From: Octopus sinensis
Lineage: Eukaryota
Assembly (NCBI RefSeq): GCF_006345805.1
Contig: NW_021834930.1
Coordinates: 1 to 43,355 of the forward strand
Direction: 5' to 3'
DNA length: 43,355 bases
How positions within the stretch are numbered: the first letter of the stretch is position 1; every line of letters begins with the position of its first letter. The position numbers and the translations under genes are program-made. This document shows, in pieces, positions 1,761 to 38,765 of the stretch. The notes under the pieces are model-generated. The model did no database searches and was not told where the DNA came from. It saw only the letters and a program-made list of their open reading frames with translations.

Positions 1761-1777
1761 TATATGTTTGTGGTATA

Positions 1778-1845
<68 letters not shown>

Positions 1846-1926
1846 TGGGGAAAAAAAAGTCACGATAGGACTTTTAAGGATTTAAGGATTTATAGAAAAT
1901 GCTAAAATAATTTTATAAAAACATTT

Positions 1927-1962
1927 CAGTACCGGTTTCAGTCATTGAGACTTTTTCAACTT
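1927..1962 (-). ncRNA. Minimal type-I hammerhead-like motif, U3-A8 core variant, within a ~140 bp element (1843-1980) following (TA)n
   Basis: Minus strand AAG-UUGAAAA-AGUC[UCAAU]GACU-GAAA-CCGG-UA-CUG: 4-bp stem II, palindromic ACCGGU stem III, GUA triplet; stem I only 2 bp. Confidence 0.6.
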
Positions 1963-2217
1963 TAACAATTAAGTAATTAAACAAAGTTGATGGGACAGGG
2001 TAAATTCATTGCCTCAACCTTAGTATTTTACTGGTACATTATTTTATAGCTCATAGTGATATGTGTTTTGGTAATTAATTTGACTGTTATGTCTAGCAGG
2101 TTTAGCAATTACATAGAAGCTTTCTTGTTAACCCAACAAAAACCAGTTTGAACTAGATTGCTGCAAAGTCGGCCGTTAATATTCTCTTTGCTCTGCCCTT
2201 CAAACACCCTTCCTATC

Positions 2218-13151: not shown

Positions 13152-13338
13152 TGTGTCTGGGGAGAGTCATTCTCTTTTAGTACCTTATTATTTAACACAC
13201 TCACTGGTAAAATTTCCACTTATTTCGTCTTTATATTTTCCTAAAATTTTCGTTGCATCTTGCAACCTTTTCAATAGTCTTGACTATTCAACACACGAAC
13301 TCATATAAAGAATCTTGCAAACCAAATCCAAAAACGAA
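13152..13338 (-). mobile_element. 187 bp insertion with 12-bp TSD (ACTAAATTCTTT) carrying an HHR-like motif
   Basis: TSD at 13140-13151 and 13339-13350; absent from the 34345 MITE copy. Confidence 0.8.
13240..13279 (-). ncRNA. Minimal type-I hammerhead-like motif, U3-A8 variant
   Basis: GACUA-UUGAAAA-G-GUUGCA[AGA]UGCAAC-GAAA-AUUU-UAGG: 6-bp stem II, 3-bp stem I. Confidence 0.5.
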
Positions 13339-18230: not shown

Positions 18231-18776
18231 TATTGGGTTGTCTGGAAAGTTTGTGTTGATTTTTAAAGGAAAGAAAAAAGTCAATAAATACTTGCTATTA
18301 CATTTTTAATCAACCAAATATGAACCATTTTGTAGCACAATCCGTCTCCATCTTCCCAGAATTGAGGTAGTTTCATGACAAAGAATTCATCAAGGTATCT
18401 TTTTACGTCATCCAAGGAATTGAAATTTTTACCACTAAGACTATTCTGCAGAGACATGAATAAGTGGAAATCCAAAGGAGCAATATCTGGTGAATATGGA
18501 GGGTGGGGGTAACACATCCCTGCCGAGCTGCAGCAAGTTTTGTCTGGTTCCCAAAGCATCAAGTGCCGAAAATGAACTTTCTTATCTTCCATTTTAAAGG
18601 GTTACAGAATTAACACAGGTTATAGGAACATAAACCTTCTCCCACAAAAAGATAGCTTAAACTGTGCTCCAAATGGAGGTGTAGTCAAATCCTATTTTAT
18701 GGATTCAACCATGTTCTTAAATAAGTCGAAAGGTAAGCTACTATAAATCAGCATGAACTTTCTGGACAACCCAATA
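18231..18776 (-). mobile_element. Internally deleted mariner element in (TA)n
   Basis: TIRs TATTGGGTTGTCTGGAAAGTT / AACTTTCTGGACAACCCAATA; TA flanks. Confidence 0.92.
18281..18592 (-). pseudogene. Mariner transposase remnant (N-terminus joined to C-terminus), mellifera-like
   Basis: MEDKKVHFRHLMLWE joined to HPPYSPDIAPLDFHLFMSLQNSL (YSPDLAP motif). Confidence 0.9.
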
Positions 18777-25135: not shown

Positions 25136-25621
25136 TATGGCATTCTGTCGGTTATGATGACAAGGTTTCCAGTTGATCCAATCAACAGAACAGCCTTTTC
25201 ATAAAATTAGCATGCAAATGGCTGAGCACTCCACAGACACGTGTACCCTTGATGTAGTTCTTGGGGGAGATCCAGTGTTGGAAGGTACCACATGAGTGAA
25301 AATATATAGGGAAGAGGATTTGAAAATACACAGGTCTTATAAAGATGTTTTACGTGAACTGCTTAAACACAAACCCTCTCTTAACATTGTCTTATCATTG
25401 TCAAAAACTCTATCACTGAATTTTAATACATCTATGTTAACTAGTTTTGAACGCCGCAAACCGGTCAGGTCAATAAACATTATTAAAAGGCCTCTGCATT
25501 TTCAAATCCTCTTAGACATACATACATACATATGTATATGTATATGTGTGTGTATATGGCGGTGCCCCAGCATGGCCACAGCTCATGAGCTGAAACTAGA
25601 ATCAATCATATATAAATATGT

Positions 25622-25934
25622 GGAGGCGCAATGGCCCAGTAGTTAGGGCAGCGGACTCGCAGTCGTAGGATCGCGGTTTCGAATTCCCAGACCGGGCGTT
25701 GTGAGTGTTTATTGAGCAAAAACACCTAAAGCTCCACGAAGCTCCGGGAAGGGTGGGGGTGGCGATCCCTGTTGTACACTTTAGCCACAACTTTCTCTCA
25801 CTCTTTCTTCTGTTGGCCTACTCGCTTAGCCAGCGGGGTGGCATCATTTGAAGGCTAAAACAATGCGAAGCGCATTGTGACCAGCGATGTGTAGCAACAT
25901 CTGATAGCCTGGTCGGTCCCGGTGATCACCGTGA
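25622..25934 (+). mobile_element. tRNA-derived SINE family D
   Basis: A-box TGGCCCAGTAG, B-box-like GGTTTCGAATTCC; inverted copy at 32472-32771; related copy 27922-28228. Confidence 0.8.
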
Positions 25935-26022
25935 TATATATATATATAGGAAAATGTGTTGTTGAAAATCCACTTAAATTTCAAAAGCTCGTAAATGTTT
26001 GAAATACATTTATTTACATATA

Positions 26023-26065
26023 TACCAAACTAGTTTCAACAATATTTTTTTGTTTATCAATGGTA
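26023..26065 (-). ncRNA. Hammerhead-like motif (U3-A8), left arm
   Basis: Mirror of 26321-26362. Confidence 0.45.
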
Positions 26066-26320
26066 AAAAGTGTAAAATTAGAAAAACATTGTTATAAGTT
26101 TCAATGTTGACAAATCAAAATGTTTCAATGTTGTACATTCTAATAAATTAATATACAGTTTTAATTTCAAACTTACACCTTCTGTTTTGAACATGATAAT
26201 TTATCAACATTGAAACATTTTAATTTATCAACATTGAAACATTTTAATTTGTCAAGATTGAACCATTTTAATTTGTCAACATTGAAACTTATAACTATGT
26301 TTTTCTAATTTTACACTTTT

Positions 26321-26362
26321 TACCATTGATAAACAAAAACTATTGTTGAAACTAGTTTGGTA
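26321..26362 (+). ncRNA. Hammerhead-like motif (U3-A8), right arm
   Basis: UACCA-UUGAUAA-ACAA[AAACUA]UUGU-U-GAAA-CUAG-UU-UGGUA: 5-bp stem I, palindromic AACUAGUU; stem II one nt out of register. Confidence 0.45.
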
Positions 26363-37623: not shown

Positions 37624-38259
37624 AGTGTAATTGTCACAGTAAAATACTTATAAATGCTTTTCACTCTCTAATAGCCTGTATAATGTAGAAGTAAAAGCCA
37701 AATAGTTTTTGCTTTCATAACATAATATTTCAAAGCTGAACTTGCATTACACCATTTAACATCGTCATATATGATATAGACACCGAGGTTGAAAGGTGGT
37801 GGCTTTTGTGACTGTCTCACATAAAAATTTTAGTCGTTTACAGAATTGCAAATTCTATTCCATGCATGAAATTAAATTTTTTAATAAAATATTGGAAATA
37901 TTTTGCCTTTAATATTTAATAACTACTACTTATAGTTTGTGAAGATATGTAGGTTAATGTTTAGTGTATTCAGCTCATGATCGCAAGGTTGTGGGTTCAA
38001 TTCTCAGTGGTGAGTTGTGTCCTTTTGCTACAGTCTATTCAACTGGCAAAAATATTTTCCTAAAAGAAGTGGAGAAATTGTCAGAGTACAAAAGACCAAG
38101 ATGTGAGGCATGAAGGAGAAAATAATTATTTCTACTCTAGACACAAGGCCTTGAAATTCTCTGGGGAAGGGAGTGAGTCGATTGCATCGACCCCTGTGCA
38201 TAACTGGTGCTTATTTCATAGTCCCCGAAAGGATGAAAGGCAAAGTTGACCTCAGTGGA

Positions 38260-38765
38260 ATAATTGGAGCATTGAGCATGATAAAAAAAAAACAAATGAG
38301 TAAAACTGTAGAAGCTATACCTAGACCCTCAACACTACACAATGTCCAAAAAATAGCCCTGCTGGGAACAGCCCATATCCTACACAAGACTCTATCAATT
38401 TAATAATAAAACTCAAACAAAACAATCCAACAAACAAAACGCACTCTATGTAGCAAATATCTAATAAAAAAAACAACCACTAACAGGCCAGATACCCAAC
38501 AGAAGAACACAAATTGCATTACACACACAACACACAATACAAACACTAATATAACAAAAGACTGCAACCAATCCCATAACAAAACAAGTTGATGCAATAT
38601 TGGGAAGAGTTTGCACCCCCGCCCCCCCAACAACAAAAAAGAACACACAATGTTGCACTCACCCCAGAAACATGGATGTGTGGCAAGTGATGCAGTGGAA
38701 ATTTTCCTGAAACTACCAAATGTTGAATAATAATAATAATGATGATGATGATAATGATAATAATA
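38260..38765 (+). mobile_element. 3' end of an R4/Dong-like (RLE) non-LTR retrotransposon
   Basis: IIGALSMIKK..LHNVQKIALLGTAHILHKTLSI* C-terminus, A/C-rich UTR, (TAA)n tail. Confidence 0.75.

What the first reader, a model, noticed from the sequence alone, without database searches (positions are those of the whole stretch)
1927..1962. U3-A8 covariant hammerhead core in perfect register
Seen: the core is UUGAAAA instead of CUGANGA, with stem II AGUC/GACU, GAAA, ACCGGU and a GUA site. The same double change occurs in unrelated elements at 13240 (UUGAAAA) and 26023/26321 (UUGAUAA). Established: positions 3 and 8 form a Watson-Crick pair in the active fold and U3-A8 is a tolerated natural variant. 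Inference: recurrence across three families suggests compensatory selection for activity rather than decay. Searches requiring CUGANGA would miss these.
Basis: partly seen in the sequence, partly recalled or inferred. Interest (0 to 1): 0.7.

Follow-up and report, generated by a model that had tools for sequence, protein, structure and literature searches.

The report
Penelope hammerhead relic with cut footprint
This is the leftover end of a Penelope-type jumping gene carrying a tiny hammerhead RNA motif whose U-A core pair is already in print; copies of its youngest sister lineage break off at the predicted cut site, which likely means the variant cuts in living cells, while this copy's own lineage shows no such trace.

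Summary
The motif is real (minus strand, 1927-1962). It lies in a 5'-truncated copy of a Penelope-like retrotransposon (family A, at least 748 copies). U3-A8 in such minimal hammerheads is published (PMC4209133, PMC3088659).

In family A, U3-A8 is the majority state (690 of 748). C3-G8 (2) is not enriched over single changes (23 and 14; p=0.10). The other cited sites are not in perfect register; two are arms of one insertion of a related element. Small lineages with a mismatched 3-8 pair were copied.

Activity is supported differently. Of 82 copies of the sequence downstream of the cut site that lack the normal G three bases upstream, 24 break there (22 events), one fused to U6. The excess is confined to the youngest subfamily, which mostly has G10.1 (10 exact breaks, 0.3-0.9 expected). 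The older subfamilies with A10.1-U11.1, including this copy's, show none (2 vs 1-2.9). This copy also has only a 2-bp stem I and is probably inert. Cleavage is untested. The scan noted U3-A8, cut marks and U6 fusions earlier in other genomes.

The parts
1927..1962 (-). Minimal type I hammerhead motif, U3-A8 core, family A (subfamily A1t); predicted scissile bond between 1930 (A17) and 1929 (C1.1)
1953..1959 (-). Core positions 3-9 (U3 at 1959, A8 at 1954)
1940..1952 (-). Stem II, 4 bp with 5-nt loop; A10.1-U11.1 here, G10.1 in 17 of 19 copies of the youngest subfamily
1931..1936 (-). Palindromic stem III (6 nt), predicted to pair between two RNA copies
   Evidence: PMC4209133
1960..1962 (-). 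5' strand of stem I; position 1962 breaks the third pair (A opposite G; family majority C)
1844..1982 (-). 5'-truncated 3' end (pLTR) of a family A Penelope-like element, short end without the tail; begins about 23 nt upstream of U3
1868..1891 (-). 24-nt insertion private to this copy, flanked by a 3-nt duplication
   Evidence: read from sequence
1774..1843 (.). (TA)n microsatellite at the element's 3' end, the likely target site
13241..13277 (-). Family B minimal hammerhead motif, U3-A8, extra G between 9 and 10.1, G10.1-C11.1, 3-bp stem I, U17; no ORF tied to it
26023..26065 (-). Family C motif, left arm of an inverted insertion (arm 25944-26133); extra U before G12, U17
26321..26362 (+). 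Family C motif, right arm of the same insertion; family C copies lie downstream of RT and GIY-YIG fragments elsewhere in the genome

Best explanation
The motif is the minimal hammerhead at the 3' end of a truncated Penelope-like retrotransposon copy; it inherited the U3-A8 core shared by most of its family, and it is predicted to cut only when two RNA copies pair through the palindrome. Shown: repeat family, RT-linker-GIY-YIG upstream on the same strand in longer copies, tail, inverted arms, (TA)n ends, U3-A8 in 690 of 748 copies. Inferred mechanism: tandem transcripts dimerise through ACCGGU, U3-A8 replaces C3-G8 in the active fold, and cleavage after A17 leaves a 5'-OH end at C1.1. When such a cut RNA is the template, the new copy starts at C1.1, sometimes after ligation to another RNA such as U6. 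This trace is strong in the youngest subfamily (mostly G10.1) and not detectable in the older, larger subfamilies with A10.1-U11.1, to which this copy belongs. Cleavage is therefore likely real but optional for copying, and this copy, with no partner arm and a 2-bp stem I, is probably inert.
For: Family and element: 43 matches among 40 scored of 297 candidates; 555 exact pattern matches, control 0. RT and endonuclease fragments upstream on the same strand in many loci; L194 reads RT C-terminus, a C-x4-C-x2-C linker and LIY..C..C..YIG in one frame with one stop, the Neptune/Nematis layout of PMC8557442. Extra tail of about 30-35 nt in 35 of 124 copies. Core states. Cut marks: of 82 matches, 41 point mutants, 13 twelve-nt repeat deletions, 4 small indels, 24 breaks at C1.1 (hand curation; 22 events after merging three rows with one shared junction). 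The letters before C1.1 fit breaks at C1.1 (p=0.30) and not breaks spread over positions 16.1, 17 and 1.1 (p=6e-5). One copy has the 3' half of U6 joined directly to C1.1 (Rfam U6 56.1 bits); RtcB joins U6 cyclic phosphate to 5'-OH RNA (PMC6789731 abstract). 17 of 24 breaks but 10 of 41 point mutants carry the youngest subfamily's marker (p=0.0005); exact breaks 10 vs 0.3-0.9 expected, 7 without internal deletions (p=5e-5 at 0.93 expected). In three loci (L366, L384, L395) the partner arm shows U3-A8 with G10.1-C11.1.
Against: No cleavage assay and no raw RNA reads. Broken copies lack the core, so their core state is inferred from a linked marker (partner arms show it in three loci only). The search could not see breaks downstream of C1.1; 31 unselected arms gave none at C1.1 and 2 downstream. 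The expected counts rest on a break rate of 0.42% per nt measured mostly in older subfamilies (34 events in 8068 nt) and an assumed site mutation rate of 3-9% (2 of 32 seen). Some junctions have 1-2 nt microhomology. Computed dimers prefer an inactive pairing (-19.4 and -20.1 kcal/mol) over the one-site active arrangement (-14.7 and -17.3). Pfam gave no above-threshold RT or GIY-YIG match. In the anole element, hammerhead mutants did not affect insertion in vitro and no RNA-seq reads ended at the site (PMC11167929 passages). Families B and C gave no clear cut marks.
Confidence: 0.72

Rival explanations
1. One reading: U3-A8 arose separately in three unrelated families and was kept each time by selection for cleavage, so this copy's lineage is active too.
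For: Paired states dominate across families: 96 of the first 100 U3 matches with the GUC palindrome context have A8 (1139 matches, control 28); C3-G8 families also exist (245 matches, control 40); the 360-nt family has both states with few mismatches (59/34 vs 5/1).
Against: A and C are related (57% aa); the 360-nt family tree needs only one switch, with weak support (bootstrap 75, root unreliable); mismatched lineages were copied; no excess of breaks in this copy's lineage group (2 exact vs 1-2.9 expected).
Confidence: 0.12
2. The whole family's hammerhead is inactive; U3-A8 was fixed by drift in an AT-rich genome, and breaks at C1.1 come from reverse transcriptase stalling just 3' of the palindromic duplex, followed by template switching.
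For: A stall in front of stem III would also end cDNA near A17/C1.1 (inference). Computed folds favour inactive dimers and monomers are no more stable than shuffles (z -0.08 to -0.46). Only one U6 junction among 24 breaks. Cleavage was dispensable in vitro for another element.
Against: The palindrome and stem I are shared by the subfamilies, yet the excess appears only where G10.1 is present. The 10.1-11.1 position stays paired through A-U, G.U and G-C states. The U6 junction is exact, without added or shared letters.
Confidence: 0.14
3. A chance arrangement in AT-rich sequence.
For: No Rfam hammerhead hit; short, weak stems.
Against: 0 strict hits in 100 shuffles; 0 in reversed controls over 418 kb; position in the 3' end of a Penelope-like element matches the published location.
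Confidence: 0.02

Closest known systems
Minimal type I hammerheads in pLTRs of metazoan Penelope-like elements, incl. the U3-A8 variant of Schistosoma mansoni Cercyon (PMC4209133; parts 1-2 of 4 read, supplements not seen)
   Same: U3-A8 core (about 1,300 hits there), short stem I, palindromic stem III, single or inverted copies from truncated elements, extra nucleotide between 9 and 10.1 (as in family B).
   Different: Family A has a 4-bp stem II, no extra nucleotide and mostly A10.1-U11.1. That paper reports low in vitro cleavage and no in vivo evidence; here genomic breakpoints give an indirect trace in one subfamily.
Natural U3-A8 core covariants (PMC3088659; section 8 and passages read)
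   Same: States that 3 and 8 pair, covary to U3-A8 in nature and were active in vitro.
   Different: Not resolved within a retrotransposon family; no copied mismatch lineages in the part read.
Neptune/Nematis-type EN+ Penelope-like elements (PMC8557442; passages read)
   Same: RT followed by a CX2-5CxxC linker and GIY-YIG with two inner cysteines; 30-40 bp tail; inverted 5'-truncated arms; microsatellite ends.
   Different: Clade not fixed by an RT tree here; no intact ORF was recovered.
U6/LINE-1 chimeras made by RtcB ligation (PMC6789731; abstract and start of introduction read)
   Same: U6 3' end joined to a retrotransposon fragment and copied into DNA.
   Different: Here the junction falls on the predicted ribozyme cut, which would supply the 5'-OH; one case only, and U6 is 5'-truncated.
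Metazoan non-LTR retrozymes (PMC7229834 passages; bioRxiv 10.64898/2026.07.22.740005 passages)
   Same: Fits the separate 360-nt tandem family used as a test bed.
   Different: Family A itself is the end of a coding element, not a tandem non-coding unit.

Membership tests
Minimal type I hammerhead (PLE type) | Core N3-UGA-N-N8-A ... GAAA with a Watson-Crick 3-8 pair, A15.1-U16.1 and H17 | tested here: met
   U3-A8 accepted variant
Minimal type I hammerhead (PLE type) | Stem II closed next to the core | tested here: met
   4 bp, present in all folds; first pair varies A-U, G.U, G-C across subfamilies
Minimal type I hammerhead (PLE type) | Palindromic stem III for dimer formation | tested here: met
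   6-nt palindrome; computed best dimer is an inactive pairing
Minimal type I hammerhead (PLE type) | Stem I flanking the cut site | tested here: inconclusive
   3 bp in the family majority, 2 bp in this copy; a 2-bp helix I is described for Drosophila virilis Penelope
Minimal type I hammerhead (PLE type) | G10.1-C11.1 (highly conserved, not absolute) | tested here: not met
   A-U in this copy and in 34 of 42 and 85 of 92 copies of the older subfamilies; G-C in 11 of 19 of the youngest
Minimal type I hammerhead (PLE type) | Self-cleavage after position 17 | not testable with these tools
   Indirect trace only, in the youngest subfamily
Rfam hammerhead families | Match to a covariance model | tested here: not met
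   No hammerhead family among 108 matches at E<=1
EN+ Penelope-like element, Neptune/Nematis type | RT followed by C-terminal GIY-YIG with two inner cysteines, upstream of the pLTR on the same strand | tested here: met
   By motif and tblastn in longer family A copies; the window copy has no ORF; Pfam below threshold
EN+ Penelope-like element, Neptune/Nematis type | CX2-5CxxC linker motif | tested here: met
   against description
EN+ Penelope-like element, Neptune/Nematis type | Optional 30-40 bp tail, inverted truncated arms, microsatellite targets | tested here: met
   Tail in 35 of 124 copies; 3 inverted pairs among 43 matches; (TA)n ends
EN+ Penelope-like element, Neptune/Nematis type | Placement by RT phylogeny | not tested
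   No reference RT set on hand; only fragments recovered
Non-LTR retrozyme | Non-coding tandem monomers of 150-450 bp (for family A) | tested here: not met
   Family A copies continue into coding sequence

The most novel reading that the evidence does not exclude
One retrotransposon family records its ribozyme being turned back up: older lineages with U3-A8 and A10.1-U11.1 spread without visible cleavage, and the youngest lineage reached G10.1-C11.1 through G.U and began to leave cut and U6-ligated copies. Core pairs change through mismatched intermediates that are still copied (U3.G8, C3.A8). Penelope hammerheads would then cut in the germ line but be optional for transposition, and this family gives a ready natural series to test that.
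Probability: 0.3. Interest if true: 0.65.

Novelty: new member of a known kind. Interest (0 to 1): 0.42.

Why it matters
The variant core itself is in print, so the motif alone is ordinary. What matters is the open question whether the weak hammerheads of animal Penelope-like elements cut in cells and whether copying needs the cut (no in vivo evidence in PMC4209133; dispensable in vitro in PMC11167929). This family gives an indirect yes to the first for a U3-A8 ribozyme and a likely no to the second, and supplies natural variants that differ at only the 3-8 or 10.1-11.1 pair for a direct assay. It also shows that U3-A8 motifs outnumber C3-G8 ones in one searched context of this genome (1139 U3 matches with GUC, mostly A8, vs 245 C3-G8 with GUH), so CUGANGA-only censuses undercount.

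Tried and rejected
Rfam scan of the window: no hammerhead hit. Within-family covariation test in family A: not significant. Direction of change between U3.G8 and U3-A8 in family A: not resolved; divergences are alike (5.8-5.9% vs 6.1%) and no outgroup was found. Root of the 360-nt family tree: unreliable, outgroup branch 1.79; its Fisher p of 5e-20 counts copies, not events, and is not used as proof of selection. Cut marks in families B and C: 2 of 39 B arms end within 2 nt of the site and one diverged C arm begins about 3 nt before it; inconclusive. The 13 twelve-nt deletions ending at C1.1 were left out of the break count because a short direct repeat explains them. Expression: no RNA holder listed; only contigs could be laid, so no RNA ends could be read. 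The AG just before U3 looks like a splice acceptor (as at helix I in D. virilis), but none of the 15 of 16 joints shown ends there and none was listed. No other letters at core positions were listed in four runs under four organism labels, but contigs drop rare variants, so this is not used. Pfam on 10 window ORFs and 9 element fragments: nothing above threshold. The subfamily table was wrong (pattern error, 5 rows) and was redone; only its expected-count lines are used. One row of alignment A1 had wrong coordinates and the alignment is not used for counts. Lunse et al. 2017 and Martick and Scott 2006 were not held and are known only through citing passages. Paper searches: (listings); none of the listings showed a report of Penelope copies starting at the hammerhead site, but Lunse 2017, the Terminon paper and all supplements were not seen, so this is a weak negative.

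Full report
1. Observation. On the minus strand the window reads stem I strand (1962-1960), core UUGAAAA (1959-1953), stem II AGUC/GACU with a 5-nt loop (1952-1940), GAA, the palindrome ACCGGU (1936-1931), A17 (1930) and CUG (1929-1927). A relaxed descriptor finds 5 hits in the window against 0.12 per shuffle; the strict class occurs once against 0 in 100 shuffles. Rfam has no hammerhead hit here. 'Perfect register' holds for the core, stem II and palindrome. Stem I has only two Watson-Crick pairs, and the first pair of stem II is A-U. The site at 13241-13277 has an extra G after position 9 and U17. The sites at 26023 and 26321 are two arms of one inverted insertion, with an extra U before G12 and U17.

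2. What it is. The motif lies in a repeat (family A) of a 2.72-Gb animal genome. Exact 30-nt patterns give 748 matches, controls 0, which is a lower bound on copy number. The window copy spans about 1844-1982, is cut short about 23 nt upstream of U3, carries a private 24-nt insertion and ends in (TA)n. Longer copies have RT and endonuclease fragments upstream on the same strand. One reads RT C-terminus, a C-x4-C-x2-C linker and LIY..C..C..YIG in one frame with one stop, the Neptune/Nematis layout described in PMC8557442 (passages). 35 of 124 copies have an extra tail of about 30-35 nt and inverted pairs occur. Pfam did not confirm the domains above threshold. Family C is a related element (57% identity over 116 aa). 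Family B could not be tied to an ORF.

3. In family A the 3/8 states are U-A 690, U-G 23, C-A 14, A-A 9, G-A 4, U-C 4, C-G 2, G-G 1, U-U 1. C-G is not enriched (0.55 expected, p=0.10). U3-A8 is thus the family's majority state and most other states look like later mutations. One exception: in a sublineage marked upstream, 15 of 29 copies are U3.G8 against 26 of 748 G8 overall, and they share a second marker (6 of 9 vs 0 of 12). A template with a wobble core was therefore copied; whether it is ancestral or derived is unresolved.

4. Across families. With the same palindrome, C3-G8 gives 245 matches (control 40) and U3 with a GUC site gives 1139 (control 28), 96 of the first 100 being A8 (hand count). 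A 360-nt tandem family has both states at about 90% identity: 59 U-A, 34 C-G, 5 C-A, 1 U-G, 1 A-A in the first 100 of 270 (hand count). With positions 3, 7 and 8 masked, the 7 C3.A8/A3.A8 units of 62 form a clade (bootstrap 96) next to the C-G group, and one switch explains the tree (bootstrap 75; root unreliable). Pairing at 3-8 is the rule, which fits selection, but the number of independent events is unknown and mismatched lineages were copied.

5. A trace of cleavage. An earlier scan note (e1-8643110) suggested looking for copies that start at the cut site. I searched for the 29 nt downstream of the site with G16.2 excluded: 82 matches, all fetched and classified (with hand curation). 41 are point mutants, 13 are 12-nt deletions between short repeats, 4 are small indels, and 24 break at C1.1 (22 events; three rows share one SINE junction). 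Of the 22, 12 have a letter other than A before C1.1, 8 have A and 2 have TA. Breaks spread over positions 16.1, 17 and 1.1 would give 4.9/6.5/10.6 (p=6e-5); breaks at C1.1 would give 14.7/4.9/2.4 (p=0.30). One copy has the 3' half of U6 joined straight to C1.1, as expected if RtcB ligated U6 to a 5'-OH end (PMC6789731, abstract). In L334 both inverted arms start at C1.1.

6. The trace is subfamily-specific. 17 of 24 breaks but 10 of 41 point mutants carry a one-base marker downstream (p=0.0005). Intact copies with that marker (A1c, n=19) are 17 U3-A8, with 10.1-11.1 G-C in 11 and G.U in 6; the other subfamilies are mostly A-U (34 of 42, 85 of 92). A1c is the least diverged (3.7%, n=15, vs 5.6%, n=18, and 6.1%, n=77; p=0.004 and 7e-6) (these sets include loci picked for variants, and substructure can inflate divergence). 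With a background of 0.42% breaks per nt, exact breaks are 10 vs 0.3-0.9 expected in A1c and 2 vs 1-2.9 in the rest; without internal deletions A1c keeps 7 (p=5e-5 at 0.93 expected). The window copy is in the group without excess.

7. Limits. Breaks downstream of C1.1 were invisible to the search; 31 unselected arms show none at C1.1 and two downstream. Rates are estimates. A reverse-transcriptase stall before the palindrome could also end copies here, though it would not explain the link to G10.1. Computed dimers favour an inactive pairing, and this copy's stem I costs 2.6 kcal/mol in the active arrangement relative to a typical copy. Families B and C gave no clear marks. No RNA ends could be read.

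8. Comparison with print. U3-A8 is reported as a natural covariant, active in vitro (PMC3088659, section 8), and in about 1,300 minimal hammerheads of Schistosoma Penelope-like elements (PMC4209133, parts 1-2 of 4), which also describes palindromic stem III, dimers, low in vitro activity and no in vivo evidence. In an anole element, C3G or G8C abolished cleavage but not insertion in vitro, and no RNA-seq reads ended at the site (PMC11167929, passages). The listings showed no report of copies starting at the site, but Lunse 2017 was not held and supplements were not seen. The scan noted U3-A8, cut marks, U6 fusions and mismatched families before in other genomes; these notes are unchecked and are not counted as support.

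9. Verdict. A real motif and a new member of a known kind; this copy is probably inert. The added value is the indirect, subfamily-resolved sign that a U3-A8 Penelope hammerhead cuts in the germ line while copying does not seem to need it. Interest 0.42.

Noticed in passing
L131-L144, L212-L268, L298-L317 (e.g. G000:C2:17172079, C4:90625832): A 360-nt tandem, retrozyme-like family with C3-G8 and U3-A8 subfamilies at about 90% identity and a small C3.A8 clade between them; C7-G8 is a CpG, so G8A may have come first.
   Followed up: partly
L337:1529-1581 (G000:C3:105651885 region): 3' half of U6 snRNA fused exactly to the predicted 3' cleavage product of family A.
   Followed up: yes
L357 and both arms of L393: The same SINE-like 5' piece is joined to C1.1 of family A at two loci, so a chimeric element may have been copied; similar SINE sequence lies in the window near 25620-25790.
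   Followed up: no
window 13285-13290 and L061-L090: Family B copies end or invert at a narrow spot 37-46 nt upstream of the predicted cut site (25 of 39 arms; partly biased by the query), next to a small hairpin. Unexplained.
   Followed up: partly
L210-L236 (e.g. G000:C1:8691201): An abundant further U3-A8 family (D) with a U.U mismatch at the base of stem II and a GUC site; one copy lies downstream of a GIY-YIG fragment.
   Followed up: no
window 1960-1975 and family A: The family majority has a pyrimidine-rich run and CAG immediately before U3, like a splice acceptor; no splice joint was seen in contigs.
   Followed up: partly
L319, L321, L327, L338, L341, L344, L348, L350, L351, L383, L388, L391: A recurrent 12-nt deletion removes GAAA, the palindrome and the cut site in 13 of 82 rows, in several subfamilies.
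   Followed up: no
L214:1500-1535 (G000:C1:21437447): A U3.G8 motif with well-formed stems I and II, not assigned to a family.
   Followed up: no
window 18281-18601 and 38155-38403: ORF pieces that look like a mariner transposase end and a non-LTR retrotransposon end (recalled resemblance; Pfam gave no match).
   Followed up: no
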